DNA of 64,000 nt from an uncultured Methylophilus sp. GTDB taxonomy: Bacteria; Pseudomonadota; Gammaproteobacteria; Burkholderiales; Methylophilaceae. The notes under the pieces are model-generated. The model did no database searches. It was not told the DNA's origin and was given only the letters and a program-made list of their open reading frames with translations. Below are positions 235 to 39,431 of the stretch, piece after piece. The DNA is taken from NCBI GenBank assembly GCA_965249075.1, contig CBDFLF010000001.1, positions 693,017 to 757,016 of the forward strand. The letters are read 5' to 3'. Position 1 is the first letter of the stretch; every line of letters starts with the position of its first letter. The translations under genes and the position numbers were made by a program.

Positions 235-2406
235 TTAGATTTTTTCGAGTTTGGCATACTCCAGCATCAAAGTTTTCAAGCCCTCACGGCCAAAATTCAC
301 TTTAATCGCCAAGTCACTGGCATTGCCTTCATAACTCACCACCACGCCATCGCCAAATTTGGCATGACGCACGCTTTGGCCAATTTTAAAAGGGTAACTG
401 CTTTGTGCGCTGGCAGGCTGAGCGACTTGGTAATGCCCACCTGCGGCATAGCTTTTTGCCACAGGCTTGCTGTTAAGGCGCTTGATGAGGGCGTCTGGGA
501 TTTCATCCACAAAGCGCGAAGGGATGCCATAACGCACTTGCCCATGCAACATACGACTTTGCGCGTGGGTTAAATACAAACGCCGACGCGCGCGCGTCAC
601 CGCTACATACATCAAGCGGCGTTCTTCTTCTAAGCCACCGTTTTCATAAGCCGATTGCTCGTGCGGAAACAAGCCTTCTTCCACGCCACTGATAAACACG
701 GTATGAAACTCCAAGCCTTTGGCGGCGTGCACCGTCATTAGTTGTAGCGCCTCACGCCCAACATCGGCTTGGTGTTCCCCTGCTTCCAAGCTGGCATGGT
801 TTAAAAATTGGGTGAGCAAATCGGCTTCTTCATCCACATTGTGGTGGTTGCCAAAATCTTGGTTGCTAAACGCCACCGCCGCCGTCACCAACTCTTCCAA
901 GTTAGCAATGCGGTCTTCGCCTTCTTTGTCATTTTCGTAATGGGCTTTTAGGCCAGACAGTTGCGTGACCAGCTCGACCATTTCCGACAAACTCACGCCA
1001 TACGCTTGATTGATGATTTCACGCATCAAGCCGACAAAACCTTCGATGCCTTTTGCGCCGACTTGTCCATTGCCGACTTTATTGATGGCGGCTTGCCATA
1101 AACTGCAATCTTGTGCGCGGGCGGATTCTTGCAACTGTTCTAAACTGCGTGCACCGATGCCACGGGTGGGGAAGTTGATGATGCGCAACAAAGCGGTGTC
1201 GTCATGCGCGTTGGCGATTAAACGCATATAGGCCATGGCGTGTTTGACTTCGGCGCGCTCAAAAAAGCGCAACCCGCCATAGACGCGATACGGAATGTTG
1301 GAAGCAAACAAGGTGTGCTCTAAAATCCGCGATTGCGCATTGCTACGATAAAGCAAGGCAATGTCGCCCAGCGCCACGCCCTCGTTTTGCAACATATTCA
1401 CTTCGTCGACTATAAATTGTGCTTCGTCGGTGTCGTTATACGCATCATAAATGCGAATCGGCTCGCCTTGGCCTTCCGAGGTCCACAGATTTTTGCCTAA
1501 TCGGTGCTGATTGTGGCTGATGATAGCGTTGGCGGCATCGAGAATATTGCTATGCGAGCGGTAGTTTTCTTCGAGTTTGACGATATTTTGCACATTAAAA
1601 TCTTGCTCAAAGTCACGCATATTGCCCACACGCGCACCACGAAAACCATAAATACTTTGGTCGTCGTCACCCACGGCAAACAAACTATTGTGCGCGCCTG
1701 CCAATAGCTTCAGCCACAGGTATTGCAGGCGATTGGTGTCTTGAAACTCATCGACCAAAATATACAAAAAGCGCTGTTGATAATGGGCGCGGATGTGTGG
1801 TTCGCGCTCTAGCAACTCATAACAACGCAACAACAACTCGGCAAAATCAGCCACGCCTTCGCGGTTACATTGCACATCATACGCTTCGTAAATCTCGCGC
1901 AATTTTTGGCTGTGTCCGTCATAAGCCTCTACCGCATGCGCGCGCATGCCCTCTTCTTTACAGCCGTTGATATAGCCTTGCACTTGCTTGGGTGGATATT
2001 TTTCATCATCCACATTCATCAACTTCATCACGCGTTTAATGGCAGAAAGCTGGTCAGCGGTATCGAGAATTTGAAAGGTGCTAGGCAAGCCTGCCTCGCG
2101 ATAATGGGCGCGCAACAAGCGGTTACACAAGCCGTGAAAAGTGCCCACCCACATGCCTCGCGTGTTAATCGGCAACATGCTGGTTAAGCGTGTGAGCATC
2201 TCTTTGGCGGCTTTGTTGGTAAACGTTACCGCCATCAAACCCATGGGCGAAACCTGCCCCGTTTGAATCAACCAAGCAATGCGCGTAGTCAACACGCGGG
2301 TTTTGCCACTACCCGCCCCCGCCAAAATCAGGCCAGATTGTTGTGGCAACGTCACTGCTTCGAGTTGTTTATTGTTGAGACCTGCTAATAATGATTCGCT
2401 ATCCAT
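235..2406 (-). CDS. uvrD: DNA helicase II (UvrD/PcrA superfamily 1)
   Basis: Walker A AGAGSGKT, motifs TFTNKAA, DEFQD, VGDDDQSIY, LEENYRS, TVHAAKGLEF, EEERRLMYVAVTRA and a C-terminal Tudor-like tail. Start placed at ATG 2406 (MDSESLLAGLN) rather than the ORF-track start 2520. Confidence 0.97.
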   Translation of the reverse strand: MDSESLLAGLNNKQLEAVTLPQQSGLILAGAGSGKTRVLTTRIAWLIQTGQVSPMGLMAVTFTNKAAKEMLTRLTSMLPINTRGMWVGTFHGLCNRLLRAHYREAGLPSTFQILDTADQLSAIKRVMKLMNVDDEKYPPKQVQGYINGCKEEGMRAHAVEAYDGHSQKLREIYEAYDVQCNREGVADFAELLLRCYELLEREPHIRAHYQQRFLYILVDEFQDTNRLQYLWLKLLAGAHNSLFAVGDDDQSIYGFRGARVGNMRDFEQDFNVQNIVKLEENYRSHSNILDAANAIISHNQHRLGKNLWTSEGQGEPIRIYDAYNDTDEAQFIVDEVNMLQNEGVALGDIALLYRSNAQSRILEHTLFASNIPYRVYGGLRFFERAEVKHAMAYMRLIANAHDDTALLRIINFPTRGIGARSLEQLQESARAQDCSLWQAAINKVGNGQVGAKGIEGFVGLMREIINQAYGVSLSEMVELVTQLSGLKAHYENDKEGEDRIANLEELVTAAVAFSNQDFGNHHNVDEEADLLTQFLNHASLEAGEHQADVGREALQLMTVHAAKGLEFHTVFISGVEEGLFPHEQSAYENGGLEEERRLMYVAVTRARRRLYLTHAQSRMLHGQVRYGIPSRFVDEIPDALIKRLNSKPVAKSYAAGGHYQVAQPASAQSSYPFKIGQSVRHAKFGDGVVVSYEGNASDLAIKVNFGREGLKTLMLEYAKLEKI

Positions 2407-2548
2407 AGCGTTATTATCGCATGCGTGCATCCAAAGCCGTGAAAAAATCACGCAAACTATCACGCATAAAATCACGCAAGTGTGGGAACTAAAACAAGAC
2501 GGAATTGCTCTTACTTGCATGATGAATAATGCGATGCATGATTCATCT

Positions 2549-2676: not shown

Positions 2677-4089
2677 TTAGAAACCAGGGTGCATCAACTG
2701 TTCCATACACTGCCTTATCGCAGGAATCGCTTGTTGTGATTGTGGCAAATGGCGAGTCAGCTTAGCCATCATGGCCAAGGCATTGCTCGGCTCTTGTTTG
2801 GCGCAATAGACTTCTATTAAATTACTCAGCGCGATACTCGGATTTTGCGCACGCTGAATGGCCTGCTCAAACAAAAACACGGCATCTTCCAAATTGCCTT
2901 CCGCAAACACGATACCGCCTAAATCGTTATAGACATGCCAGCATTGGGTTTTGGCTTGCACCAGCGGAATGAGTATGCGCATCGCTTCGACTTGTTGACC
3001 ACGGGCAATCAATGACTCTGCTAATTGATATACTTCATAATCTTTATCTACTTGCGCAGAAACAGGCGCATGCGGCAACGCTAGCCCTTGCAAGGCCGCT
3101 TCAAGGTTATCCATGATGGCAACGGCACTCTCGCCCAAGCATGAAAACTGATGTGCGCGCTGTGTTTGTACATCGGCTTGGTATTGCTGTTTGTTGTCTA
3201 AAATGGCTTGCACGGCCGTGGTCAAATCCACCTTGGTGGTTTTGGTCACATAGTCGTAAGGTACGCTGGCTGGTCGCGGCGGATCTTGGTCAGGAATCAA
3301 CCAATCTGTCACCGCCACGCCTGGCACATCTAATAAAAGCGCTTCGGTTAATACGCTAGATTCATCAGACACCATGACATCGGCCAAGCCCAAGCAATAC
3401 ATGATGCTGATTTCCGGATCGATGATATACACATTATCGGCACAGCCTTGATGCAAGGCGTTCATGGCGTGAATGTTGTCCCACACTTGGGTGTAACTCG
3501 GCGACCAAGGGGCTTGTTTTAACAGCAAGTTCACAGGCAAATGCTTGAGTGCTTGCACAAAGTCATCTTGCTTGCCGTGGTTTTCCCATGAAGGCGCATA
3601 TAACACGGATTGCGCGTGTTTCAACCCCAGCTGGGCGCGCAAAGTTTCGGCCTCTTGCTTAAAGTGGGCTTTGTTACGAAACACCAAATCGGCCTTGGGC
3701 CAGCCTAATTCAAACACGCCCAACTTAGGACGGGCATAGCTAAAGCCTGCTTGCGTTTGCCAGCGCTCCACCCATGCTTGCCCTGGCAAAATGCCCATGT
3801 CAAACGCCTGCCAAGGCTCATAATGCCAAAATTGTGGCCAAATATCATGGCGTTGCGCTAAGTCGTGCAACAAGATAATAGAAAAATCTGCATTGGGCTT
3901 GCAGGCATGCTCACAATACACACCTATCTCGGCACGTTGTTGACTGTTCATGCTCCACAATACATTAAACCCACGTTTTTCCGCCTCGTCGGCAATCGGC
4001 GCAATCGCTTGACGCTCGCAATTGTCGGTATAAAAAAAGGTGATGCTGGGGTTGAGATTGGATTTCTGGGTGGCGGTGGAAGTGGACAT
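2677..4089 (-). CDS. TagF/CDP-glycerol phosphotransferase-like (CMP/CDP-donor GT-B) transferase fused to C-terminal TPRs
   Basis: LGWPKAD, VLYAPSWE and ADVMVSDESSVLTEALLLDVP resemble the PF04464 motifs GYPRxD, LYAPTWR and DxLITDYSSvxxdxxllxkP. Residues ~351-465 are TPR-like (YNDLGGIVFAEGNLEDAVFLFEQAIQRAQNPSIALSNL). Last gene of the pepM operon. Confidence 0.7.
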   Translation of the reverse strand: MSTSTATQKSNLNPSITFFYTDNCERQAIAPIADEAEKRGFNVLWSMNSQQRAEIGVYCEHACKPNADFSIILLHDLAQRHDIWPQFWHYEPWQAFDMGILPGQAWVERWQTQAGFSYARPKLGVFELGWPKADLVFRNKAHFKQEAETLRAQLGLKHAQSVLYAPSWENHGKQDDFVQALKHLPVNLLLKQAPWSPSYTQVWDNIHAMNALHQGCADNVYIIDPEISIMYCLGLADVMVSDESSVLTEALLLDVPGVAVTDWLIPDQDPPRPASVPYDYVTKTTKVDLTTAVQAILDNKQQYQADVQTQRAHQFSCLGESAVAIMDNLEAALQGLALPHAPVSAQVDKDYEVYQLAESLIARGQQVEAMRILIPLVQAKTQCWHVYNDLGGIVFAEGNLEDAVFLFEQAIQRAQNPSIALSNLIEVYCAKQEPSNALAMMAKLTRHLPQSQQAIPAIRQCMEQLMHPGF

Positions 4090-4098
4090 CTTTGAATC

Positions 4099-4839
4099 CT
4101 ATTTTTTCAAAATCACACTAAAGCGAAAATCGCGTTGCGCGTAGTTGGGGATGCAACTGGTAAATACTGTTTTTTCAGAGACAGCAAACGCATCAAACCA
4201 GCTTACGTCATAATAAGTATGTGCATAACCCGCGTATTTTTCGTCATACTCGGCTTGCGTCATATTGGCAGAGGCCGCTTCACGACGTAAGGCCTCGCAG
4301 GCTTGCTTAGTGGCTAAGTTAGGCACATCGAGCACCGCCACCGCAACACGCGCTTTGGCGAGCATGGCAGTCAGCACCTGTTTGGCGTAAGGCAAATCAA
4401 AGTAATGAAACACACTGTTGGCAATCACCACGTCATATTGTGGCGTGGTAGCGAGAGCAAGCGCTTCAGCCACAGCAAAATCACCCTCTGGCATGGCGTG
4501 TTGCGCCGCTTCTATCAGGCCCGAGCTGTAATCCAATCCACCGACTTCTAGGTCGCGCACTTGTTGCAATGCGTACAAAAACGCGCCAGCACCGCAACCC
4601 ACTTCATAGACGCTATTGCCATCTTGCAAGTGCAATTTGTCAGCGATTAATTGTGCATAGTCCTGCCAATCTTCTGGTGCAATACGTCCTGCTCCGCTGT
4701 CAAAACCATCCAGCGCAATCAAGGCGGCTAAGTCGAGTGGTGCTTGCGTTTCTCTACGCCGCTTTTCCCACACCCCATGCCAGTGATTGGCTGTTGCAGG
4801 GGCTGTAGAGGGGCTTAAGTGCTGAGTGTGTGTCGTCAT
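4099..4839 (-). CDS. Class I SAM-dependent methyltransferase, probable N-methyltransferase
   Basis: Motif I VYEVGCGAG, motif II GLDYS, post-II YDVVIANSVFHYF. Start overlaps the upstream gene's stop by 4 nt. Confidence 0.85.
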   Translation of the reverse strand: MTTHTQHLSPSTAPATANHWHGVWEKRRRETQAPLDLAALIALDGFDSGAGRIAPEDWQDYAQLIADKLHLQDGNSVYEVGCGAGAFLYALQQVRDLEVGGLDYSSGLIEAAQHAMPEGDFAVAEALALATTPQYDVVIANSVFHYFDLPYAKQVLTAMLAKARVAVAVLDVPNLATKQACEALRREAASANMTQAEYDEKYAGYAHTYYDVSWFDAFAVSEKTVFTSCIPNYAQRDFRFSVILKK

Positions 4840-5285
4840 ACTTTACTTTCTAAGGTTTGCGCCACCGCTTGCAACACCTTGCCTCTTAAATAACTGCTAC
4901 TGACCCCTTCGGTGCGAGGCAACACATGCAAACGTGTTGGGGAAATCGGATTACTGTTGTCATGACCATGCACCAACAAATCAATCTGGTGGGCGTCTAA
5001 AAAGTCTTCTTCTATCAGCCACGGGCAAGGTACGATTTCATCTACATAGCGAATCGCGGACAGTATTTCGTGTCGCTGCGCGTAGTTCAGCTCAGGTTCA
5101 TAGCCTTTTTTAAGTTTAATTTCCTCATCAGTGGTGAGCGCGACGATGACTTTGCCAAGTGCGTGCGCGGCTTTGAGTAAACGGATGTGGCCGTGATGAA
5201 TCAGGGTGGCAGACATATCCACCATGATGCGTTTTTCTTGGTGAGAGTGAGGCTGAGAGCGATTTAGTTGTGAGGGTGCGTGCAT
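4836..5285 (-). CDS. Standalone HxGH-type cytidylyltransferase (TagD/glycerol-3-phosphate cytidylyltransferase-like)
   Basis: DMSATLIHHGHIRLL (HxGH), VIVALTTDE, KKG, RHEILSAIRYVDEIVP and VHGHD match the CTP_transf_like family layout. Confidence 0.88.
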   Translation of the reverse strand: MHAPSQLNRSQPHSHQEKRIMVDMSATLIHHGHIRLLKAAHALGKVIVALTTDEEIKLKKGYEPELNYAQRHEILSAIRYVDEIVPCPWLIEEDFLDAHQIDLLVHGHDNSNPISPTRLHVLPRTEGVSSSYLRGKVLQAVAQTLESKV

Positions 5286-5290
5286 GATAA

Positions 5291-6280
5291 TTACCCTATG
5301 CTGAGTGCGTTTAAAATCTCGGCTTGCGCCAGCGCACCCAAATGCGCTTCACCCAAGTGGCAGACCACACTACCTTGTTGCATACCCCGTGGTTGGTATA
5401 ACACCGCACGCGCATCAGCACTGCTCACTCTGGCATTGACCCAGGTGCATAAATTGGGTTGATGGGTGCTAGGACGCGTCTCGTAATCAGCAATGCGTTT
5501 TAAAAAAGCCGCTTTGTTAATCATCACCGCCTGTTTGAAATGCGCATGTTGTGGCAACACTTCATATAGCGAGCAAATAGCATGGTAAGGCCCTGTCATG
5601 CGTTTTTCGACATGGCTTTGCATGTCTAGATAAAACGAATCGACAGCCACGGTAGGTGGTTGATAATAGGCAATAAAAGCCGCCCCTGTGAGACCAAACA
5701 GGCCTTTGCAAGAGCTGTAAGCAATCACATCGGCTAGGTGGTGGTCGGGTTCTAGGCCTATCGAGGCGGTGGCATCTAACAACACTTTGGCCTGACAGCG
5801 TTGCGCCAATGCGTGTAAATCTTGCATAGGCAATTTAAGGCCAACACTGGTTTCGGTGTAACAAGCGACTATCCAATCAAACGCGGTGTTGATGGTGTTT
5901 AGACTTTGCCAATCGCAAACTTGCACCGACTGCACTTGTGCATATTGGCGCATGGCTGACTCCGCCAACGCTTGTAAGCGGGCTGAGTAGTAACCTGTTT
6001 GCACCACCAACACACGGCCATACAAAAAATTGAGGCTGGCGATTTCCAGTGCCAATGTCGCTGAACCTTGCAAACGGACAATATGTGCATGGCCTGTCAT
6101 CTGCTGTAGCGCACTCATCACAGATTGCTCTACATGGTCATAATCGGCATCACCACGGCCAAAACTGGGACGTAAGCCATATAAGTTTTCAGGGAGTAAA
6201 CTAGCCGGCCCTGCCGTGTATAAGAATTTATCTTGGTTGCGCTGACTGACTAGCGCTTGAATGGAAGCAGTGGCCGTCAT
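5291..6280 (-). CDS. Class V PLP aminotransferase, 2-aminoethylphosphonate transaminase-like (AepZ/PhnW-like), divergent
   Basis: YTAGPA, GSATLALE, CYTETSVG, LLDATASIG and the PLP-lysine motif SSCKGLFG. Lies directly after phosphonopyruvate decarboxylase. Confidence 0.8.
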   Translation of the reverse strand: MTATASIQALVSQRNQDKFLYTAGPASLLPENLYGLRPSFGRGDADYDHVEQSVMSALQQMTGHAHIVRLQGSATLALEIASLNFLYGRVLVVQTGYYSARLQALAESAMRQYAQVQSVQVCDWQSLNTINTAFDWIVACYTETSVGLKLPMQDLHALAQRCQAKVLLDATASIGLEPDHHLADVIAYSSCKGLFGLTGAAFIAYYQPPTVAVDSFYLDMQSHVEKRMTGPYHAICSLYEVLPQHAHFKQAVMINKAAFLKRIADYETRPSTHQPNLCTWVNARVSSADARAVLYQPRGMQQGSVVCHLGEAHLGALAQAEILNALSIG

Positions 6281-7470
6281 ATTGGCTCCCGCGTAACTTC
6301 GTGATGTGCGACATAGTGAATGCTCACTTGCTCAACAAAGTCCATGAATGCTTGTTTATTTTGCGCAGGCGTGCGGTCAGGCCGCCCCAAGTCTTCACGC
6401 GCGCCACATTTGCAAAGCACTTCAATAAAGCAACTACCATCGTAGGTAAGGGCTTCAAGCAAAGACGCTTTGACTTCAAAAATGGTGCGGGCGTTTAGAC
6501 ACAATCCATAACCACAAGCCTTGGCAATCTCGGTTAAATCGTGGCCTTTTGCCAACGTGGGTTGCCCGCCGACTGAATCATGTGCGCCATTGTTAATCAC
6601 CACATGAATCAAATTATCTTGCTTGGCGCTCAATAACAAACTGCCCATATGCATGAGCATGGCGCCATCCCCATCCAAACACAGCACTTTTCGGCGTGGC
6701 ATTTGCATGGCAATGCCGCAAGCAATTTGCGAGGCATGGCCCATGCCACCCACCGTTAAAAAGTCTTGTCCAGCATTGCGGTGCCCTTGTGCTTTACGGT
6801 ATTCGTGCAACTCGCGCGATGCCATGCCCGTGGTCGCCACCACAGGCACGTCTTCTGGCAGTACTTGCATCAGCGATGTAATCACTGTCTCACGGCTGAG
6901 CAGATTGATGATTGGGTTAGCATTGATATTTGTAGATACGAATTTAGCAAACGTCTGTTTGCGTACCAATAAGGCGACTGGGCCTTGTCGGGCTTCTGCT
7001 TGTGCGATGAGCGATTGCAACAACTTTGCAATATCTGTCGTTTGCGCATCAATGATTTGGTAAGGAATATCCAATAACTGCAACTGTTGTTCTGTCACTT
7101 GCCCTTGCTTGACATGCTGAGGCTCATCGTGTATTTGCTGGCCATCCGCTTGCATCTCGCCACGCCAACCCACCATCAATAGCATGGGCACACCGACCAC
7201 TTGCGGGTCAACCAAAGAGGTGATGGGGTTCACAATATTGCCCAAACCTGAGTTTTGCATATACACCAGCGCAGGTTGGCACGTGGCTAAATAATGCCCC
7301 AAGGCCAAAGCAACCGCCGCCCCTTCATTGGTGGCAATCACATGGTCATCGCTGGGCAAGTTTTGCGTGAAACAAGCACACACTTCCTTGAGCAAAGAGT
7401 CTGGCACACCAGTGACAAAACGGATGCCAGCTTGTGTCAGTGCGTGGGTAAAATCGTTAGGTGCGATCAT
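6277..7470 (-). CDS. aepY: Phosphonopyruvate decarboxylase (ThDP-dependent)
   Basis: TGVPDSLLK, NEGAAVALALGHYLAT, VYMQNSGLGN, EPQHVKQG, TTGMASREL, DFLTVGGMGHASQIA, ThDP motif DGDGAMLMHMG...NNGAHDSVGGQPT, and LGRP. Confidence 0.96.
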   Translation of the reverse strand: MIAPNDFTHALTQAGIRFVTGVPDSLLKEVCACFTQNLPSDDHVIATNEGAAVALALGHYLATCQPALVYMQNSGLGNIVNPITSLVDPQVVGVPMLLMVGWRGEMQADGQQIHDEPQHVKQGQVTEQQLQLLDIPYQIIDAQTTDIAKLLQSLIAQAEARQGPVALLVRKQTFAKFVSTNINANPIINLLSRETVITSLMQVLPEDVPVVATTGMASRELHEYRKAQGHRNAGQDFLTVGGMGHASQIACGIAMQMPRRKVLCLDGDGAMLMHMGSLLLSAKQDNLIHVVINNGAHDSVGGQPTLAKGHDLTEIAKACGYGLCLNARTIFEVKASLLEALTYDGSCFIEVLCKCGAREDLGRPDRTPAQNKQAFMDFVEQVSIHYVAHHEVTREPI

Positions 7471-7476
7471 GTTGCT

Positions 7477-8778
7477 CTACCTTGTACCAGGAATCAAAGC
7501 CAATACATCATTAATCGGCATCAAACTACTATCCACCTCGGCAGAACGGCCATTACGCAAAATCTCGCGAGCCACATGTTGCATGGCAGGGTAAGCAGCG
7601 CGTAATAAATGGTTGGCATAAATCACCAAATTAAAGCCATGCTCTGCCAACTCATCCTCGGTAGACTGACTGTAACTAGTCGGCACACACACCAAAGGCA
7701 CGTCAGGAAACTCGTCTTTAAAAGTATCGGCAAACTCATACACTTCAGCAGGCGATTTTTGGCGACTATGAATCATAATGCCGTCAACGCCTGCGCCCAC
7801 ATAGGCTTGCGCACGGGTAATGGCATCTTTCATGCCTTTTTCCAAAATCAGGCTCTCAATACGCGCAATCACCATAAAATCTTCGCTTACGCGGGCCGCG
7901 CGACCAGCAATAATCTTGTCGCAAAATGGCTCAATATCATCTTGCAACTGCGCCACCTCATTGCCAAATAAAGAATTCTTTTTTAAGCCTATCTTGTCTT
8001 CAATAATGGTCGCCGAAATCCCTAAACGCTCCATACTGCGCACGTTCAGTTCAAAATGTTCTAACTTGCCACCTGTATCTGCATCCATGATGAGCGGTTT
8101 GGTGGTCACATCAAAAATATCATTAATATTCGAAAGACGACTATTGATTTCCACCGCCTCAATATCAGGCTTCCCACGCGCCGTTGAATCAGTCAGTGAG
8201 CTCGACCAAAAGCCATCAAACTGGCAAGTTTTACCATTACGCTCCGCCGTCACATGCTCGGCAATCAAAGCAGAAATAGGGTTATGCGCTTCGATAAAGC
8301 GTGAAATCGGTTTAGCGGCGAGCAAACGTTTTAATGTGCGACGACGAATATCGGGCGTGGTGCCCAAAGCCTGCATTTGCCCGAGCATTTCGTTAGAAGA
8401 CACCCCACGTGTATAAGGAATCTCAATCAAATGACCGCCATACTCAGACAAAGCCTCACGCGCGCGCTCACGATAAGGCAACAACGGGCCATCTAACCAA
8501 TCGTCACCATGCACCATAATGTCAGGTTTGTATTTGCGTAAATTAGGCGCGTAATCCCATTCATCTTGTGGCACGACGTTCACCACCCCACGAATATTTT
8601 CAACAATGTGTTTACGATGCTCAAAGCTGAGATAAGGCAAACGCTTGTGGTCAGCCACGGCGGCATCTGAAAGCAAGCCTATCGTCACCTCGCCATACTT
8701 GCGTGCTTGCTCAATGATATTAATATGCCCATGGTGAAGAATATCCATGGTCATGCCCACATAAACAGAATTCGTCAT
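7477..8778 (-). CDS. aepX: Phosphoenolpyruvate mutase with N-terminal cytidylyltransferase domain
   Basis: Diagnostic PepM motif EDKIGLKKNS (EDKxxxxxNS), plus EAHNPISA, WSSSLTDS, DADTGG and ARIESLI. The N-terminal ~130 aa carry DILHHGH and VHGDDW. Confidence 0.98.
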   Translation of the reverse strand: MTNSVYVGMTMDILHHGHINIIEQARKYGEVTIGLLSDAAVADHKRLPYLSFEHRKHIVENIRGVVNVVPQDEWDYAPNLRKYKPDIMVHGDDWLDGPLLPYRERAREALSEYGGHLIEIPYTRGVSSNEMLGQMQALGTTPDIRRRTLKRLLAAKPISRFIEAHNPISALIAEHVTAERNGKTCQFDGFWSSSLTDSTARGKPDIEAVEINSRLSNINDIFDVTTKPLIMDADTGGKLEHFELNVRSMERLGISATIIEDKIGLKKNSLFGNEVAQLQDDIEPFCDKIIAGRAARVSEDFMVIARIESLILEKGMKDAITRAQAYVGAGVDGIMIHSRQKSPAEVYEFADTFKDEFPDVPLVCVPTSYSQSTEDELAEHGFNLVIYANHLLRAAYPAMQHVAREILRNGRSAEVDSSLMPINDVLALIPGTR

Positions 8779-8943
8779 CTGCCCGACCTTTCCTTACAAT
8801 CGGCTTTAAAACAAAGCCTATGATTGATATTTGGAATAATTATGGGCTATGAGGCTAGAGATAGATTGCGCAAATAAAGCAAGAAAAGTGGCTTATATCA
8901 GACACCAGCGTATCACAACAATTATCGCCAGAAATAGCACAAC

Positions 8944-8967
8944 AAAAAACCCGCCGAAGCGGGTTTT
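8944..8967 (-). terminator. Intrinsic terminator of the FKBP gene
   Basis: Minus strand reads AAAACCCGC-TTCG-GCGGGTTTTTT, 26 nt past the stop at 8994. Confidence 0.85.
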
Positions 8968-8993
8968 AGTCTGATTAAAATAGATATACGGTA

Positions 8994-9620
8994 TTACTCA
9001 ATATCTAACAACTCAACCTCAAACACCAAGGTCGCATCCGCGCCAATCACAGGGCCACTACCACGCTCGCCATAAGCCAAATCAGAAGGAATCGCCAATT
9101 CAAATTTACTGCCAACGCTCATCAACTGCAAACCTTCCACCCAACCTGCAATCACGCCAGTCACAGGGAAAACAATCGGCTCACCACGGTCATAAGAGCT
9201 ATCAAACACGGTGCCATCAATCAACGTGCCTTTGTAATGCACTTTTACGCGATCATTTTTGCTAGGTTTTGCGCCGTCACCAGCCACAAGCTCTTTATAC
9301 TGCAAACCACTGGCTGTGGTAATCACACCTTCTTTTTTAGCATTCTCAGCCAAGTAAGCCTCGCCTGCCGCTTTATTTTTAGCCGATTGCTCAGCCTGCA
9401 CCGCCATTTGGCGATCTTGGCTTTCTTTTTGCACTTGCTCAACGGTGCTACGTTTTTCAGCGTCAGACAAACGTGACGGATTACCCGCCATCACATCGTT
9501 AATCGCCAACACAATCGCGTCCGTGTCTAACTCAAGCCCATCATCCTTAAGTTGATGCGCCATGTTTTCACCCACGATATAACTTAAGCGTTGGGTTAAG
9601 GTATCTAATGCAGTCGTCAT
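8994..9620 (-). CDS. FKBP-type peptidyl-prolyl isomerase with N-terminal dimerisation domain (FklB/Mip-like)
   Basis: LSYIVG, TTASGLQY, VHYKGTLIDGTVFDSSYDRGEP, VIAGWVEGLQLM, IPSDLAYG, LVFEVELL. Confidence 0.95.
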   Translation of the reverse strand: MTTALDTLTQRLSYIVGENMAHQLKDDGLELDTDAIVLAINDVMAGNPSRLSDAEKRSTVEQVQKESQDRQMAVQAEQSAKNKAAGEAYLAENAKKEGVITTASGLQYKELVAGDGAKPSKNDRVKVHYKGTLIDGTVFDSSYDRGEPIVFPVTGVIAGWVEGLQLMSVGSKFELAIPSDLAYGERGSGPVIGADATLVFEVELLDIE

Positions 9621-9744
9621 GTATTTTACTTTCGTTGTTTAAGTTGGAAATGGAAAACGCGACATTATGAAGCAGATTGCGAGATAAAACAAAACCTGCC
9701 GTGGTGGGTATTGGCTGAGATGCAGAACTTAAACTCAGCGCTTA

Positions 9745-10056
9745 TTATTTTTCATGTTTTTTTCTAGATTCTGCCTCTATGGCTCGTAAACTGTAATTTG
9801 ATTCTGTCGGTTCCTTTGATTTTCGATTTAAGAAAGCATAAATCAATAATGCAGGCACTAGGCCAAACAAACCAAATAACAACCATAAAAAACCGCCCAT
9901 CTGACCTGCAGCAAGGACAGGGCCTATGGCGCCACAAGCAGAGGATGCACCAGCACCCTCGTCAACGGTACAGCCCGGAATTAATGCAGCAATCCCAAAA
10001 GATAAAAGCATGATACAAAAGGGCAGTAAAAGTGCAAGGTAATAATATAGTCGCAT
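9745..10056 (-). CDS. Small hypothetical two-TM membrane protein
   Basis: Two hydrophobic segments flank the loop PGCTVDEGAGASSACG; basic/charged C-terminus. GAAGAA purine run upstream. No family recognised. Confidence 0.6.
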   Translation of the reverse strand: MRLYYYLALLLPFCIMLLSFGIAALIPGCTVDEGAGASSACGAIGPVLAAGQMGGFLWLLFGLFGLVPALLIYAFLNRKSKEPTESNYSLRAIEAESRKKHEK

Positions 10057-10113: not shown

Positions 10114-10144
10114 AAAAACCCGCCGAAGCGGGTTTTGTTTTTTT
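10114..10144 (-). terminator. Intrinsic terminator downstream of groEL (potentially bidirectional)
   Basis: AAAAACCCGC-CGAA-GCGGGTTTT with T runs in both orientations. Confidence 0.8.
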
Positions 10145-10267: not shown

Positions 10268-11905
<1,638 letters not shown>

Positions 11906-11963
11906 TTAAATTCTCCTAAATTCTTATAACTTTTGATTGAATTTTTAAATTGAATAATTTGAA

Positions 11964-12251
11964 TTATTCAACAATCGCCATGATGTCTTCTTCACGCATG
12001 ACTAATAATTCCTCACCGTCAACTTTAACGGTTTGGCCTGCGTATTTGCCAAACAACACTTTGTCGCCAACTTTTACGTCTAGCGGAATCAATTTACCGC
12101 TGTCATCTTTTTTACCGTTACCCACGGCTTGCACCACACCTTGATCTGGCTTTTCAGTCGCGCTGTCTGGGATTACAATGCCAGAGGCTGTTGTGCGCTC
12201 TTCTGCTGCGCGTTTAACAATCACACGGTCGTGTAATGGACGAATTTTCAT
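11964..12251 (-). CDS. groES: Co-chaperonin GroES
   Basis: [38 protein letters not shown]. Confidence 0.99.
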
Positions 12252-12314
12252 TAGTTTCTCCTTAGTGTATGCTTAAACTATTAATATGTCGTTTAAAGTA
12301 AATGGTGCGAGATT

Positions 12315-12341
12315 TTAGCACTCTCCCACCTCGATTGCTAA
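12315..12341. promoter_or_regulatory. CIRCE element (HrcA operator)
   Basis: TTAGCACTC-N9-GATTGCTAA has one mismatch to TTAGCACTC-N9-GAGTGCTAA and lies upstream of groES. Confidence 0.9.
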
Positions 12342-12369
12342 CATTGGGATGATGCAATCCAATTTCAAG
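12341..12369 (-). promoter_or_regulatory. Sigma32 (RpoH)-type heat-shock promoter for groESL
   Basis: Minus strand CTTGAAA-14 nt-CCCAATGT versus consensus CTTGAAA-N13-17-CCCCATNT. Confidence 0.8.
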
Positions 12370-12399
12370 CGCTTGTTTGCAATTTTTTAGGAAAAAATT

Positions 12400-12963
12400 T
12401 TGGAACAATCCATACAACAACTGAATTTAGGCTATCACGCTGCGCAAGACCGCATGCTACTCAAAGCAGGCGTGGGCGAGACGCAAGAAGTGCAATTGTG
12501 GATTACGTTTCGGATTGCGCGTTTTTTGTTTGCGATTTTAAACAATGATGCCCACTTGCCTGTGGCCGTCCCTGCCCCAACCGAAAACCCAACGCAAGCG
12601 GTTGAGCAATTTGCGCAAGAGGCGCAAGCGATGGAAGCCTTAAAAAGCTTGGATTTTGAAACCGCTTACCAAGCCGAGCGTAAACCATTGATAGAAGCAG
12701 AAGAGTTATTGGTGACCGAGTTACACGTTGAACAAATCGAGCATGTGGAGCAGGGAACCAAAAGTCTGAAATCGCTCAAACTACAATGTGCCAATGGATT
12801 CAGCATACAACTCAATCTTTCAACCGAGTTGGTATTGGCCTTGGCTAACATGCTACAACTTGCGGCCAAAGATGCGCAATGGCCATTGGCTGGCGTGGCT
12901 GCGCCAACCGCCACCAGCGCATTTGTGATGGCAGAGCCCGCCAATAAACAGGTTTTACATTAA
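12400..12963 (+). CDS. Hypothetical protein
   Basis: 187-aa ORF with TTG start preceded by AGGA. Stop overlaps the next gene's ATG (TAATG), implying translational coupling. Confidence 0.75.
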   Translation: MEQSIQQLNLGYHAAQDRMLLKAGVGETQEVQLWITFRIARFLFAILNNDAHLPVAVPAPTENPTQAVEQFAQEAQAMEALKSLDFETAYQAERKPLIEAEELLVTELHVEQIEHVEQGTKSLKSLKLQCANGFSIQLNLSTELVLALANMLQLAAKDAQWPLAGVAAPTATSAFVMAEPANKQVLH

Positions 12964-14021
12964 TGGAATTTATCACGCTAGGCCACACCGACATTCGAGT
13001 CTCAAAAATCTGCTTGGGCACCATGACCTATGGTGACCAAAACACCCAACAAGATGCCAATAATCAGCTCGACTATGCGCTCAGTCAGGGCATCAACTTT
13101 ATTGATACCGCTGAAATGTACCCTGTGCCACCCAAAGCGGAAACCGTCACGCGTACCGAGACCATATTAGGAAATTGGATTAAAACCAAACCGCGCGATA
13201 GTTTTGTACTTGCCAGCAAAGTTGCTGGCCCGCGCCGTGGCATGCATTGGATACGCGGTGGACCCAGTGCGTTAGATAGAGACAACATTCGCAGTGCGGT
13301 GCACGACAGTTTGCAACGTCTGCAAACGGATTACTTGGATGTGTTTTATCTACATTGGCCTGAGCGCAATGTGCCAATGTTTGGGCAATATCAATTTGAC
13401 CCCAAGGCCGAGTTAGACCAAGACGGCAACCCCATAGAATGGGTGAGCGTACAAACGCAGTTGCAAGTGCTGGATGAATTAATTAAAGAAGGCAAAATCC
13501 GCTCGATTGGTTTAAGCAACGAACAACCTTGGGGCGTGATGGAATTTTTGCGTATTGCCAAAGAACACAATCTCCCGCGTATTGTGGCCTTGCAAAACTG
13601 CTACAACCTCATGAACCGTGGCATGGAATTTGGCATGGCTGAGATTTTGTACCGCGAAGGCATTAGTCTTAACGCCTACTCCCCCTTGGCATTTGGGCAC
13701 CTCACGGGCAAATATATCGACAACCCCAACGCCGTTGGGCGCGTCACCCAATTTTTAGGTTATGCGCAACGCTACAAAAAGCCTGGCGTGCCACTCGCTA
13801 GCAAACGTTATGCAGAACTCGCCCGCGCCCATGGCATGAGCCCAACACAACTCGCGCTCAGCTTTGTCTACCACCGTTGGTTTGTGAGTAGCACTATCAT
13901 CGGCGCGACCACCATGAACCAACTGGCAGAAAACGTCTCGGCTTATTTTGTTAAACTCAGCGACGAGGTACTGGCGGAAATCGAACAAATTCACCTCACC
14001 ATGATGAATCCTGCGCCTTAA
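12963..14021 (+). CDS. Aldo/keto reductase (Tas-like)
   Basis: VSKICLGTMTYG, GINFIDTAEMY, SLQRLQTDYLD, YLHWP, IGLSNE, QNCYNL, YSPLAFG, IIGAT. Confidence 0.93.
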   Translation: MEFITLGHTDIRVSKICLGTMTYGDQNTQQDANNQLDYALSQGINFIDTAEMYPVPPKAETVTRTETILGNWIKTKPRDSFVLASKVAGPRRGMHWIRGGPSALDRDNIRSAVHDSLQRLQTDYLDVFYLHWPERNVPMFGQYQFDPKAELDQDGNPIEWVSVQTQLQVLDELIKEGKIRSIGLSNEQPWGVMEFLRIAKEHNLPRIVALQNCYNLMNRGMEFGMAEILYREGISLNAYSPLAFGHLTGKYIDNPNAVGRVTQFLGYAQRYKKPGVPLASKRYAELARAHGMSPTQLALSFVYHRWFVSSTIIGATTMNQLAENVSAYFVKLSDEVLAEIEQIHLTMMNPAP

Positions 14022-14105
14022 GGCTTCATCAGCCTAGCCAGAAATGTGACCTAGACGGCATAACCATGTAAAATATAGGGTTTTAGCATATTTAGAAGGC
14101 GCCTT

Positions 14106-14447
14106 ATGTCATCACTCCCACCCTGCCCGCAATGCAATTCTGAATACACCTATGAAGATGGTGACAACTACGTTTGCCCCGAGTGCGCACACGAGTGGCC
14201 TAAAACCGCCAGTGCCAACAGCGAAGAAACGAGCAAAGTGGTGCGTGATGCCAATGGCAATATATTGCAAGATGGCGACACGATTACCGTCATTAAAGAC
14301 CTCAAGGTTAAAGGTTCCTCTTCGGTGGTCAAAGTCGGCACAAAAGTCAAAAATATACGATTAGTGGATGGCGACCACGATATTGACTGCAAAATAGAGG
14401 GTTTTGGCGCGATGAAACTCAAGTCTGAGTTTGTGAAAAAGGCTTGA
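14106..14447 (+). CDS. Zinc-ribbon protein YjdM (historically called PhnA)
   Basis: CPQC...CPEC zinc ribbon, [34 protein letters not shown]. Confidence 0.92.
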
Positions 14448-14738
14448 TTGACTTACTATTTCACTCAAATTTAGCGCAATTTAGGGCATAAAACACAAAA
14501 GCCCTAAATAAAAATGGAATTATTAAAAGATATTGCTTGCTTATATCGTTACTATCCCCCATAGTGTAGCTTGCGATTTTAAAGTAATGTTGTTGCTGTT
14601 TGATTTTGTACCCGTTGTTTCATGGTTTTCCACTAATTTAAGTGATTTCCTGAAGGTATTTTTCATCACCCCTTCTGCTTTGAGTTTCGCTCACAAGGGA
14701 AATCCCTTTTTATTAGTTTATTTTTTTAAGGATATAAC

Positions 14739-14945
14739 ATGGCAATTGGAACAGTTAAATGGTTTAACGATGCAAAAGGTTTTGGTTTTATTACGCCTGA
14801 AGATGGCGGCCAAGATTTGTTCGCTCACTTCTCAGCTATTCAAGCTTCTGGTTTCAAAACATTAAAAGAAAACCAACGCGTAAGCTACGATGTGACAACA
14901 GGCCCAAAAGGTCAACAAGCATCAAACATTCGCGAAGCCGAATAA
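14739..14945 (+). CDS. Cold-shock protein (CspA family)
   Basis: [15 protein letters not shown] (RNP1), LFAHFSAI (RNP2), GPKG. Confidence 0.96.
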
Positions 14946-14981
14946 TAAGTCTTTTGCCTACTTGGTAGGCATGGCTTAAAC

Positions 14982-15016
14982 AAAGCCCTAGGCGTCAAAA
15001 CCCCTAGGGTTTTTTT
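14982..15016 (+). terminator. Intrinsic terminator after the csp gene
   Basis: CCCTAGG(14986-14992)/CCTAGGG(15003-15009) followed by T7. Confidence 0.75.
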
Positions 15017-15046
15017 ATTGGATGCAAGCAAGTTGAGGAGAAGCTT

Positions 15047-28708: not shown

Positions 28709-28719
28709 AGGCAGAACCT

Positions 28720-39383: not shown

Positions 39384-39431
39384 CTACTTTCCTTTAAAAA
39401 CGGCAACGCTTGCTATATAAGGCTTGCTATA

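What the first reader, a model, noticed from the sequence alone, without database searches (positions are those of the whole stretch)
2677..4089. TagF-like phosphotransferase fused to TPRs: possible protein phosphonylation enzyme
Seen: residues ~70-260 carry LLHD, GWPKAD, LYAPSWE, LKQAP and DVMVSDESS; residues ~351-465 form about three TPR-like repeats. Established: GYPR.D, YAPTWR, K.HP and DYSS are hallmarks of CDP-glycerol phosphotransferases (TagF/TagB, PF04464) and related CMP-donor GT-B enzymes. TPR-fused GT-B enzymes often modify proteins (OGT-like and flagellin-type glycosyltransferases). The usual K.HP histidine is replaced here (KQAP). Inference: it transfers a phosphonate group from a CMP-phosphonate to an acceptor chosen by the TPRs, possibly a pilin, flagellin or glycoprotein, analogous to phosphoethanolamine/phosphocholine decoration of Neisseria pilin but with a C-P bond. 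This could alter phage receptor recognition or resist phosphodiesterases.
Basis: partly seen in the sequence, partly recalled or inferred. Interest (0 to 1): 0.72.

Follow-up and report, generated by a model that had tools for sequence, protein, structure and literature searches.

The report
Phosphonate transferase, TagF-like, TPR-tailed
The gene encodes a soluble TagF-like transferase with a three-repeat TPR tail that ends a six-gene operon making activated 2-aminoethylphosphonate; in related bacteria the same enzyme family sits inside flagellin-glycosylation islands, so it most likely puts a carbon-phosphorus group on a sugar, probably one carried by flagellin.

Summary
Window 2677-4089 on the minus strand encodes a 470-aa protein. 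It has a GT-B/TagF-like catalytic domain (Pfam PF04464 just above its cut-off; AlphaFold pLDDT 93; best PDB fold matches TagF, TarL and Cps3D) and a C-terminal three-repeat TPR module. All quoted motifs are present. The second "invariant" TagF histidine is replaced by alanine, and this holds across the family (K-Q-A).

The gene closes a tight operon: cytidylyltransferase-PEP mutase fusion, phosphonopyruvate decarboxylase, an AEP-transaminase-like enzyme, an ethanolamine-phosphate-cytidylyltransferase-like enzyme, and a methyltransferase. A CMP-(N-methyl)AEP donor is therefore the best reading.

The family is compact, about 200 clusters at 50% identity. Of 77 genome loci, 47 have Ppm or Ppd within 10 kb. 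Thirty, from at least nine lineages, have flagellar filament genes within 10 kb, often alongside TPR-bearing glycosyltransferases or Maf/NeuB. Other members sit in an O-antigen locus or in non-flagellated Bacteroidota.

The likely acceptor is therefore a glycan hydroxyl, often on flagellin, rather than a protein side chain. In this genome (Methylotenera-like) the operon stands alone between fklB and uvrD, so its acceptor is unresolved.

The parts
2677..4089 (-). Whole ORF, 470 aa: TagF-like GT-B phosphotransferase with a C-terminal TPR module. It is the last gene of the operon.
   Evidence: ORF list and translation; Pfam PF04464 and TPR_19; AlphaFold2 pLDDT 93.3; Foldseek TagF, TarL and Cps3D.
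3070..4089 (-). GT-B catalytic domain, residues 1-340. N-terminal Rossmann half is about residues 1-128, with invariant H61 and H75-D76. C-terminal half is about residues 129-340, with GWPKAD, YAPSWE, K191-Q192-A193, H213 and D237..E243-S244.
   Evidence: Secondary structure; invariant columns in 48- and 81-member alignments; profile alignment to TagF and Cps3D.
2692..3045 (-). TPR module, residues 349-466: seven helices forming three TPR pairs plus a cap.
   Evidence: TPR_19 at 34.9 bits; helices in the model. It is present only in the betaproteobacterial branch (Methylophilaceae, Vogesella, Dechloromonas, Niveibacterium); most relatives of 330-375 aa lack it.
4099..4839 (-). Class I SAM methyltransferase, 246 aa; candidate AEP N-methyltransferase.
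   Evidence: Methyltransf_12/25/11; weak PDB sequence hits to phosphoethanolamine N-methyltransferases 5WP4 and 5WP5, E about 1e-4; conserved next to the transferase in Methylophilaceae, Vogesella, Planktomarina and Pseudolabrys.
4836..5285 (-). Small stand-alone cytidylyltransferase, 149 aa. Its stop overlaps the methyltransferase start.
   Evidence: PF01467. Best PDB sequence hit is human ethanolamine-phosphate cytidylyltransferase 3ELB (5e-23); then TagD (2e-15) and the Fom1 cytidylyltransferase domain 5X3D (2e-10).
5291..6280 (-). Divergent class V aminotransferase, 329 aa; probable phosphonoacetaldehyde to AEP transaminase.
   Evidence: Aminotran_5 at 22.6 bits; TIGR03301 PhnW-AepZ at 63.7 bits, far below the 360.8 cut-off; best PDB hit is AEP-pyruvate transaminase 7E7G, 1e-12.
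6277..7470 (-). Phosphonopyruvate decarboxylase (Ppd), 397 aa.
   Evidence: TIGR03297 at 443.9 bits against a cut-off of 312.5.
7477..8778 (-). Fusion of a PF01467 cytidylyltransferase (residues about 1-140) with PEP mutase (residues about 146-433). First gene of the operon.
   Evidence: TIGR02320 at 410.9 bits against a cut-off of 319.55, plus CTP_transf_like. The Ppm signature EDKxxxxxNS is present as EDKIGLKKNS in the translation (motif definition from PMC6697681).
8779..8967 (-). Upstream non-coding region of the operon. The fklB terminator hairpin is at 8946-8967. About 165 nt follow before the start codon, including an AAGGAAAGG ribosome-binding site.
   Evidence: Terminator scan; sequence. 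The last ~125 nt are identical in the ≥90% relative L081. No convincing sigma-28 motif was found.

Best explanation
The protein is a soluble, acidic member of a compact, uncharacterised subfamily of TagF-like GT-B phosphotransferases. The subfamily signature is LHD ... G[WY]PK.D ... YAPSWE ... KQA[PH]W ... SDESS.

Inferred pathway. The five upstream genes convert PEP to phosphonopyruvate (Ppm), then to phosphonoacetaldehyde (Ppd), then to 2-aminoethylphosphonate (the transaminase-like enzyme). AEP is N-methylated to some degree by the methyltransferase and activated with CTP to CMP-AEP or CMP-N-methyl-AEP by the two cytidylyltransferases. The TagF-like enzyme binds the CMP-phosphonate in its C-terminal Rossmann half. 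An invariant histidine of the N-terminal half (H75 or H61) deprotonates an acceptor hydroxyl. The hydroxyl attacks the phosphonate phosphorus and CMP leaves. The product is a glycan-O-P(O2)-CH2CH2-NHx(CH3)y phosphonate monoester.

Likely acceptor. From the genomic company the family keeps elsewhere, the acceptor is a sugar of a glycoconjugate. In flagellated relatives it is an O-glycan on flagellin, modified in the cytoplasm before export. The C-terminal TPR module is proposed to dock the enzyme on flagellin or on the TPR-rich flagellin glycosyltransferase complex.

Shown: fold, motifs, operon content and family context. Inferred: donor identity, methylation, acceptor and TPR role.
For: Fold and motifs.

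Operon. There are six co-directional genes with 4-nt overlaps or gaps of at most 9 nt. Ppm and Ppd score above their equivalog cut-offs. The second cytidylyltransferase is closest to ethanolamine-phosphate cytidylyltransferase, whose substrate has AEP as its C-P analogue. The methyltransferase weakly resembles phosphoethanolamine N-methyltransferases. No other transferase is in the operon.

Co-occurrence with phosphonate genes. Of 77 genome loci, 47 have Ppm or Ppd within 10 kb. These include Methylophilaceae, Dechloromonas, Niveibacterium, Andreprevotia, Accumulibacter, Fibrobacterota, Pseudolabrys, Clostridium and Bacteroides. The partner nucleotidyltransferase can be PF01467- or LicC-type, while the TagF-like gene stays.

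Flagellar context. Thirty of 77 loci have flagellar filament genes within 10 kb. Examples:
- Methylophilaceae MAG L006: fliC - pnt operon - TagF-TPR - TPR/GT41 - fliC - flaG - fliD - fliS.
- Methylophilus: fliS-fliD-flaG-fliC, divergent from the operon.
- Vogesella: fliD-fliS-fliT-fliK...operon...FliB_C.
- Clostridium: fliC - GT2/TPR - ... - TagF-like - PntC - Ppm - Ppd.
- Roseburia: fliC - Maf - TagF-like - NeuB.
- Planktomarina: fliS next door.

Precedents. 2-AEP has been found on the GlcNAc of C. difficile flagellin (PMC8861647). A glycerophosphotransferase gene lies in that flagellin-modification locus (PMC10889297). FlmG's TPR binds flagellin (PMC7591256).

Protein properties. It has pI 5.2 and no hydrophobic segment. 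TarL, by contrast, is membrane-associated and carries conserved basic clusters.
Against: - In this window, and in a relative at least 90% identical, the operon lies between fklB-groEL and uvrD. No flagellar, glycosyltransferase or polysaccharide genes are nearby.
- The roughly 500-aa methyltransferase module that follows the TagF-like gene in nearly all other proteobacterial and Nitrospira loci is absent here.
- Some family members sit in an O-antigen ABC-transporter locus or in non-flagellated Bacteroidota, so flagellin is not the universal acceptor.
- About 30 of the 77 loci, mostly Lachnospiraceae, show no Ppm within 10 kb. One member is flanked by choline-kinase/NTase/BCCT and TarI/TarJ-like genes. 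The family is therefore not strictly phosphonate-specific.
- The histidine that is essential in TagB, TagF and TarL for CMP departure is missing.
- No biochemical data exist for any member, as far as the searched literature shows.
Confidence: 0.5

Rival explanations
1. The chemistry is the same (aminoalkylphosphonyl transfer from a CMP-phosphonate), but in this organism the acceptor is a cell-envelope polysaccharide such as O-antigen, capsule or EPS. The TPR module serves oligomerisation or polymer handling, as in TagF-like capsule polymerases.
For: The Accumulibacter homologue lies directly after wzm-wzt (with Wzt_C) and next to a WbsX glycosyltransferase. Members occur in Bacteroides and Paludibacter, which lack flagella. 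Most TagF-like capsule polymerases carry a TPR domain used for dimerisation and acceptor elongation (PMC11666461), and Cps3D is among the best fold and sequence matches. No flagellar genes lie near the operon in this window.
Against: Every lineage that carries the TPR-fused form and was seen with long flanks has the gene in a flagellar locus or next to the GT41/TPR giant glycosyltransferase. The window has no polysaccharide genes either. The protein is acidic and lacks membrane-binding features expected for a lipid-linked acceptor. It has only three TPRs, against 14-20 helices in Cps3D and Cps7D.
Confidence: 0.27
2. Direct protein O-phosphonylation, the first reader's headline: the enzyme puts AEP straight onto Ser/Thr (or Tyr) of a protein selected by the TPRs, by analogy with PptA-type phosphoethanolamine or phosphocholine decoration of pilin.
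For: No glycosyltransferase accompanies the operon in this genome. TPRs are protein-binding modules. The chemistry needs only a hydroxyl nucleophile.
Against: All characterised TagF-like enzymes use polyol or sugar hydroxyls. In relatives the gene is always embedded among glycosyltransferases and sugar-nucleotide genes. It also occurs in polysaccharide loci. The one known AEP on flagellin is on GlcNAc, not on the peptide.
Confidence: 0.07
3. The TagF-like enzyme transfers a conventional phospho-alcohol, such as glycerol phosphate from CDP-glycerol made by the TagD-like small cytidylyltransferase. AEP would then be attached by a transferase encoded elsewhere.
For: The small cytidylyltransferase also matches TagD (TIGR01518 at 61.9 bits; PDB 2B7L at 2e-15). 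Two cytidylyltransferases in one operon could mean two donors. A family member sits beside TarI/TarJ-like and choline-activation genes.
Against: The cytidylyltransferase is closer to ethanolamine-phosphate cytidylyltransferase (5e-23) than to TagD and is far below the TagD equivalog cut-off of 165.4 bits. In other genomes the second nucleotidyltransferase is LicC-type, the type shown to make CMP-AEP (PMC6697681). No alternative AEP transferase (LicD or EptA-like) was seen in the operon or in the annotated relatives' loci. The family lacks the H584-equivalent of polyol-phosphate transferases.
Confidence: 0.1
4. It is a catalytically dead TagF-like scaffold, because the second essential histidine is lost.
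For: H584A in TagF and H433A in TarL abolish activity. Here the position is alanine.
Against: The substitution is family-wide and sits within an invariant K-Q motif. More than 20 further positions are invariant across 81 members from distant phyla, including nucleotide-binding motifs and two N-domain histidines. Repeated gene fusions to methyltransferase and GT2 domains argue for an active enzyme.
Confidence: 0.03

Closest known systems
TagF / TarL / TagB wall-teichoic-acid polyol-phosphate transferases (PF04464; PDB 3L7I-3L7M, 8VA1)
   Same: Same GT-B fold (best Foldseek hits). Conserved G-x-P-[RK]-x-D, YAP[ST]W and [DE]..SS nucleotide-binding motifs. The expected SN2-type attack of a hydroxyl on the phosphorus distal to CMP is the same.
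   Different: - The N-terminal half does not align by sequence, and there is no WHG motif.
- The second essential histidine (TagF H584 / TarL H433) is alanine.
- The protein is acidic and soluble-looking, rather than membrane-associated with conserved basic clusters.
- There is no polymerase N-terminal domain.
- The donor is inferred to be a CMP-phosphonate (a single transfer, since AEP has no hydroxyl to extend) rather than a CDP-polyol.
TagF-like capsule polymerases with TPR domains (Cps3D/Cps7D of Actinobacillus pleuropneumoniae; PDB 8QOY)
   Same: A TagF-like GT-B domain is fused to TPRs. It is the best PDB sequence-profile hit (2e-8) and among the top fold hits.
   Different: Cps3D is a 1,149-aa polymerase with a 14-helix N-terminal TPR and a second glycosyltransferase domain, encoded in a group 2 capsule locus. 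The protein here has three C-terminal TPRs, a single catalytic domain and no capsule genes nearby.
Phosphonyl-tailoring (Pnt) clusters with PntC cytidylyltransferases (Rice et al. 2019, PMC6697681)
   Same: Ppm carries the EDKxxxxxNS motif and is fused to a cytidylyltransferase. Ppd and an AEP transaminase are present. CMP-AEP is the activated donor for cell-surface decoration.
   Different: The transferases noted there were LicD-like or glycosyltransferases; here the transferase is TagF-like. Both cytidylyltransferases are PF01467-type. An extra methyltransferase is present. The comparative context is flagellar.
Clostridioides difficile type A flagellin modification locus (CD0240-CD0244) and Pseudomonas aeruginosa PAO1 PA1088-PA1091
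   Same: The logic matches: a sugar on flagellin Ser/Thr is extended through a phosphorus bridge to a small N-methylated amino compound. The locus contains a nucleotidyltransferase, a methyltransferase and a 'glycerophosphotransferase' next to fliC. 2-AEP has been detected on that GlcNAc (PMC8861647).
   Different: The attached group there is phospho-N-methylthreonine, a phosphodiester. C. difficile has no pepM. Sequence relatedness of CD0244 to this subfamily could not be tested with the tools available.
FlmG / GT41 (OGT-like) TPR-glycosyltransferases of flagellin
   Same: A TPR module is fused to a GT-B catalytic domain. FlmG's TPR binds flagellin. TPR+GT41 proteins flank this enzyme's orthologues in Methylophilaceae.
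   Different: Those enzymes transfer sugars to protein Ser/Thr and carry long N-terminal TPR arrays. The protein here has no GT41 match, a short C-terminal TPR, and phosphotransferase-type motifs.

Membership tests
TagF-like polyol-phosphate transferases (PF04464) | GT-B fold of two Rossmann-like domains | tested here: met
   AlphaFold2 pLDDT 93.3. Foldseek top hits are TagF 3L7x (E 1e-10, probability 1.0, TM 0.55-0.57 on target), TarL, Cps3D and Bcs3.
TagF-like polyol-phosphate transferases (PF04464) | Pfam PF04464 score above the gathering threshold | tested here: met
   24.6 bits against 22.1, which is marginal and covers only profile positions 160-291 of 367.
TagF-like polyol-phosphate transferases (PF04464) | Nucleotide-binding motifs GYPR.D, YAPTWR and DYSS in the C-terminal half | tested here: met
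   GWPKAD, YAPSWE and SDESS align to TagF 508-513, 543-548 and the TDYSS segment. They are invariant or nearly so in 81 members.
TagF-like polyol-phosphate transferases (PF04464) | Catalytic-base histidine in a WHG motif of the N-terminal half (TagF H444 / TarL H300) | tested here: inconclusive
   There is no WHG motif. The invariant candidates are H75 (LLHD, after strand 67-73) and H61 ([QE]H, after strand 53-58). The N-domain profile finds no TagF in PDB sequences, and hhalign aligns this part with near-zero confidence.
TagF-like polyol-phosphate transferases (PF04464) | Second invariant histidine contacting the alpha-phosphate (TagF H584 / TarL H433), essential for activity | tested here: not met
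   By strand register the position reads K191-Q192-A193. Alanine is present in 73 of 81 members, and histidine appears one residue later in 17. The role of the histidine is taken from PMC10901376.
TagF-like polyol-phosphate transferases (PF04464) | Monotopic membrane association and basic patches for an anionic polymer or lipid-linked acceptor | tested here: inconclusive
   pI is 5.2, with 52 D+E against 33 K+R. The maximum 19-residue hydropathy is 1.45, so no transmembrane segment is indicated. This rests on sequence-level indicators only.
TagF-like capsule polymerases with TPR (Cps3D type) | Multi-domain polymerase (TPR + polyol-phosphate transferase + second glycosyltransferase) in a group 2 capsule locus | tested here: not met
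   There is a single catalytic domain in 470 aa. No kps or capsule genes are among the Pfam-scanned ORFs of the window (about 0.2-42.6 kb).
Phosphonyl-tailoring (Pnt) AEP cluster | True Ppm with the EDKxxxxxNS motif, plus Ppd | tested here: met
   EDKIGLKKNS is in the translation. TIGR02320 scores 410.9 against 319.55, and TIGR03297 scores 443.9 against 312.5.
Phosphonyl-tailoring (Pnt) AEP cluster | AEP transaminase | tested here: inconclusive
   Only 63.7 bits against the 360.8 cut-off for TIGR03301. The best PDB hit is nevertheless AEP-pyruvate transaminase 7E7G at 1e-12. The gene is conserved in position across relatives.
Phosphonyl-tailoring (Pnt) AEP cluster | Phosphonate-specific cytidylyltransferase producing CMP-AEP | not testable with these tools
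   Two PF01467 domains are present, and the closest solved relative is ethanolamine-phosphate cytidylyltransferase. Substrate preference needs an assay.
Flagellin glycosylation island component | Location within or next to fliC/flaG/fliD/fliS together with a flagellin glycosyltransferase | tested here: not met
   This is not met in this window or in the ≥90% relative L081. It is met for orthologues and paralogues in 30 of 77 genome loci and in L003, L084 and L085.
OGT-like (GT41) TPR protein glycosyltransferases | GT41 catalytic domain preceded by a TPR superhelix | tested here: not met
   There is no PF13844 match and the TPR is C-terminal. GT41+TPR proteins are separate neighbours in relatives.

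The most novel reading that the evidence does not exclude
This enzyme family is the missing transferase that installs a C-P-bonded aminoalkylphosphonate (AEP or N-methyl-AEP, a 'phosphono' analogue of phosphoethanolamine/phosphocholine) on flagellin O-glycans across Proteobacteria, Nitrospira and Clostridia. It would use a TagF-like active site rebuilt without the second catalytic histidine. The TPR tail of the betaproteobacterial form would be a flagellin or flagellin-glycosyltransferase docking module. That would make 'phosphono-flagellin' a widespread, genetically defined modification. It would also suggest candidate enzymes for the unexplained AEP on C. difficile flagellin.
Probability: 0.4. 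Interest if true: 0.75.

Novelty: new variant of a known kind. Interest (0 to 1): 0.58.

Why it matters
The step that moves an activated phosphonate onto a cell-surface molecule is the least understood part of phosphonate 'tailoring'. In the searched literature I found no characterised bacterial AEP transferase.

This subfamily of about 200 clusters at 50% identity is a concrete candidate, with a distinctive active-site signature (K-Q-A in place of R/K-x-H). Its repeated placement inside flagellin-glycosylation islands links two fields that the searched papers do not connect: phosphonate biosynthesis and flagellin glycosylation.

A C-P linked, zwitterionic cap on the filament surface would resist phosphodiesterases. 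It could also change phage adsorption, filament bundling, immune recognition and phosphorus budgets.

The hypothesis is directly testable in cultivable methylotrophs (Methylophilus, Methylotenera) with flagellin mass spectrometry and 31P NMR.

Tried and rejected
1. An N-domain-only profile (A2) against PDB sequences found no TagF relative, only chance-level HGPRT hits.

2. A database search with the TagF 504-637 fragment, meant to collect full-length TagF proteins for a profile-profile alignment, returned only fragments of at most 235 aa. Five of them contain WHG. However, hhalign aligned the N-terminal half with near-zero confidence, onto a non-conserved 'WH' at residues 88-89. The catalytic-base assignment stays open.

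3. Exact look-up of the window protein's contig failed because it is not on record. The ≥90% relative (L081) gave the flanks instead.

4. I tried to learn whether the source organism has flagellin by laying run X1 on a Methylotenera flagellar locus. X1 proved to be a metagenome (6.1 million contigs), so the hits cannot be assigned to this organism.

5. I looked for a sigma-28 (TAAA-N15-GCCGATAA) promoter upstream of the operon in the window and relatives. None was convincing.

6. Base composition gives no sign of a foreign island. GC is about 0.50 across the operon (range 0.45-0.51) and 0.43-0.52 in the flanks.

8. The idea that H213 replaces the missing histidine was set aside. It lies at the C-terminal end of helix 200-213, which by Rossmann topology points away from the nucleotide site. 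This is an inference, not a measurement.

9. The pseudo-enzyme reading was rejected on conservation grounds.
Full report
WHAT IS THERE

The interval 2677-4089 holds one long ORF, on the minus strand (470 aa). The plus-strand frame is full of stops.

Pfam gives PF04464 (CDP-glycerol glycerophosphotransferase) at 24.6 bits, just above its 22.1 cut-off. The match covers only residues 125-259. TPR_19 scores 34.9 bits over residues 395-452.

An AlphaFold2 model built on 48 homologues is confident (pLDDT 93.3, pTM 0.80). It shows two Rossmann-like halves followed by seven helices between 349 and 466, which is three TPR pairs plus a cap. Foldseek against the PDB puts TagF first (3L7x, E 1e-10), then TarL, the TPR-bearing capsule polymerase Cps3D, and Bcs3. 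UDP-GlcNAc 2-epimerases follow. A family profile also finds Cps3D (2e-8) and TagF (5e-6) by sequence, aligning GWPKAD/GYPRND, YAPSWE/YAPTWR and SDESS/TDYSS.

ACTIVE SITE

TagF-like enzymes have two histidines that are essential. The first is the base, TagF H444 / TarL H300, in a WHG motif. The second, TagF H584 / TarL H433, contacts the alpha-phosphate and is proposed to help CMP leave (PMC10901376; PMC11666461).

The TagF segment places H584 directly after the strand YVILLR. The equivalent strand here is VNLLLK (187-191), followed by Q192-A193. Across 81 members from 77 genomes, K191 and Q192 are invariant and A193 occurs in 73. Seventeen members, mostly Lachnospiraceae, have a histidine one residue later.

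The N-terminal half has no WHG. Two invariant histidines, H61 and H75-D76, end adjacent strands. I could not decide which one is the base. The N-domain does not align to TagF by sequence, and model coordinates are not exposed.

The protein is acidic (pI 5.2) and has no hydrophobic segment. TarL, by contrast, is membrane-associated and carries conserved basic clusters.

THE OPERON

Five co-directional genes lie upstream, with 4-nt overlaps or gaps of at most 9 nt:
- A PF01467 cytidylyltransferase fused to PEP mutase. TIGR02320 scores 411 bits, and the Ppm signature EDKIGLKKNS is present.
- Phosphonopyruvate decarboxylase (TIGR03297, 444 bits).
- A divergent class V aminotransferase. Its best solved relative is AEP-pyruvate transaminase (1e-12).
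- A 149-aa cytidylyltransferase. Its best solved relative is human ethanolamine-phosphate cytidylyltransferase (5e-23), ahead of TagD.
- A SAM methyltransferase with weak similarity to phosphoethanolamine N-methyltransferases.

AEP is the C-P analogue of phosphoethanolamine. The operon therefore reads like a phosphonate version of the route from phosphoethanolamine through N-methylation to a CDP-activated donor.

The TagF-like protein is the only transferase in the operon. An intrinsic terminator of fklB (8946-8967) precedes the operon.

THE FAMILY AND THE COMPANY IT KEEPS

A word-indexed search gave 417 homologues. An exhaustive HMMER search of 1.84 billion representatives gave 199 proteins at E<=1e-30, 293 at E<=1e-10 and 744 at E<=1e-3. 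The subfamily is therefore compact.

The TPR-fused form (460-495 aa) is confined to Methylophilaceae, Vogesella, Dechloromonas and Niveibacterium. Most members are 330-375 aa without a TPR. Others are fused to methyltransferase or GT2 domains, or carry extensions of 250-300 aa.

In 77 species-representative genome loci, 47 have Ppm or Ppd within 10 kb and 30 have flagellar filament genes within 10 kb. A random gene should lie that close to a flagellin gene in roughly 1% of cases; this figure is my estimate from genome size. The association also recurs in independent lineages and in different arrangements:
- Methylophilaceae MAG L006: GT41/GT2/TPR/MTase giant - fliC - operon - TagF-TPR - TPR+GT41 - fliC - flaG - fliD - fliS - fliK.
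- Methylophilus: fliS-fliD-flaG-fliC divergent from the operon, with a 2,521-aa GT41/MTase protein downstream.
- Vogesella: fliD-fliS-fliT-fliK ... operon ... a FliB_C protein.
- Clostridium: fliC - GT2/TPR - TPR/GT2/MTase - GT2/MTase - TagF-like - LicC-type PntC - CT/Ppm - Ppd - transaminase.
- Nitrospira: the TagF-like domain is fused to MTase+GT2+TPR in a 1,436-aa protein, with fliC 9 kb away.
- Roseburia: fliC - Maf - TagF-like - glycosyltransferases - NeuB.
- Planktomarina: fliS next door.

Counter-examples matter. In Accumulibacter the cluster follows wzm-wzt, an O-antigen ABC transporter with Wzt_C. Bacteroidota members cannot be flagellar. About 30 loci, mostly Lachnospiraceae, show no Ppm within 10 kb. 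One flagellar-island member is flanked instead by choline-kinase/NTase/BCCT and TarI/TarJ-like genes.

The common denominator is a glycan hydroxyl as acceptor and a CMP/CDP-activated small phospho(no)-compound as donor. Flagellin O-glycans are the most frequent context.

THIS GENOME

GroEL is at least 90% identical to that of Methylotenera sp. G11. Here, and in a ≥90% relative (L081), the six-gene operon sits alone between groES-groEL-fklB and uvrD-...-polA.

The ORFs of at least 150 aa between about 12 and 43 kb, which were Pfam-scanned, are housekeeping genes, and tblastn finds no flagellin, FliD, FliS, FlaG or GT41 anywhere in the 64-kb window. The roughly 500-aa methyltransferase module that follows the TagF-like gene almost everywhere else is also absent. 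Composition gives no hint of recent import.

All family-invariant residues are intact, so the enzyme is presumably active. Its acceptor in this organism cannot be read from the window.

MECHANISM PROPOSED

The steps are: PEP to phosphonopyruvate, to phosphonoacetaldehyde, to AEP; then N-methylation and CTP activation; then TagF-like transfer of the aminoalkylphosphonyl group to a sugar hydroxyl with loss of CMP. Because AEP has no hydroxyl, this is a single capping transfer, not a polymerisation.

The TPR tail may dock on flagellin or on the TPR-rich glycosyltransferases, by analogy with FlmG, whose TPR binds flagellins (PMC7591256). The alternative is the oligomerisation or acceptor-handling role seen in Cps3D (PMC11666461).

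Fold, motifs, operon content and family context are shown. Donor, methylation state, acceptor and TPR function are inferred.

COMPARISON WITH WHAT IS KNOWN

The protein works like a TagF-family phosphotransferase, but it fails one defining feature (the second histidine) and leaves another undecided (the WHG base). It should be filed as a divergent subfamily, not as a TagF/TagB orthologue.

It fits the Pnt logic of Rice et al. (CMP-AEP as donor; PMC6697681). That paper mentions LicD-like transferases, not TagF-like ones.

The nearest biological precedent is the C. difficile type A flagellin modification. There, GlcNAc is linked through phosphate to N-methylthreonine, the locus includes a nucleotidyltransferase, a methyltransferase and a glycerophosphotransferase, and 2-AEP was detected by MS on the same GlcNAc with no known genetic source (PMC8861647, PMC10889297).

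My literature searches found no paper linking ppm clusters to flagellin islands and no characterised bacterial AEP transferase. The library is limited to open-access papers, so this is absence of evidence only.

VERDICT

The TagF-like fold, the phosphonate donor and the flagellin idea gain support. 'Protein phosphonylation' should be read as phosphonylation of a glycan, probably on flagellin in relatives. For this genome the acceptor remains open.

This is a new variant of a known kind. Interest is moderate to high, because it gives a testable candidate for an unassigned enzymatic step and an unexpected link to flagella.

Noticed in passing
window 8946-8967 and 10115-10136: An identical 22-nt palindromic terminator hairpin (AAAACCCGCCGAAGCGGGTTTT) occurs twice. 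One copy lies just downstream of fklB. The other lies between the 103-aa ORF at 9745-10056 and groEL. A 74% copy is at 9690-9712. None is expected by chance (0 in 100 shuffles). It may be a small repeated terminator or REP-like element.
   Followed up: partly
L001 9182-10966; L004 11471-13186; L082 11502-13181; L028 within 10732-15042; L059 within 6835-9984: A module of about 500 aa (class I methyltransferase plus roughly 300 aa with no Pfam match) lies directly after, or is fused to, the TagF-like gene in nearly all proteobacterial, Nitrospira and many Firmicute loci. It is absent from this window. It is probably the enzyme's functional partner.
   Followed up: partly
L085 236-5884 and 10001-11854: A 617-aa family member sits in a flagellar island of an uncultured Firmicute. 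It lies beside choline-kinase-like, NTP-transferase, BCCT transporter, IspD/TarI-like and ADH/TarJ-like genes, with no ppm. This suggests the family also handles CDP-choline- or CDP-ribitol-type donors.
   Followed up: no
L001 923-9185 (Candidatus Accumulibacter): The phosphonate genes and the TagF-like gene follow wzm-wzt (with a Wzt_C carbohydrate-binding domain). This raises the idea that a methylated phosphonate could be a chain-terminating cap recognised by the O-antigen ABC transporter.
   Followed up: no
L028 10732-15042 (Nitrospira): A 1,436-aa single polypeptide combines TagF-like, methyltransferase, GT2 and TPR domains. It is a Rosetta-stone fusion of functions that are encoded separately in other genomes.
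   Followed up: partly
window 235-2520 (-): The uvrD ORF as listed (761 aa) begins with a cysteine- and hydrophobic-rich 38-residue extension. The orthologue in the ≥90% relative is called at 723 aa, so the real start is probably the internal ATG near 2406.
   Followed up: no
window 26528-29523 (+): A DinG-like helicase (DEAD + Helicase_C_2, 726 aa) is followed, with overlapping stop and start, by a DUF2971 protein (272 aa). The role of the pair is unknown and was not examined.
   Followed up: no
window 34801-40697 (-): A complete RND efflux operon is present: a HlyD-type adaptor, an AcrB-family pump of 1,050 aa, and an OEP outer-membrane factor. An MFS transporter lies next to it.
   Followed up: no
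L084 11506-12774 (Vogesella): A protein with a FliB_C domain (flagellin lysine methylase family) lies immediately downstream of the TagF-TPR orthologue. This links the operon to another flagellin-modifying enzyme.
   Followed up: no
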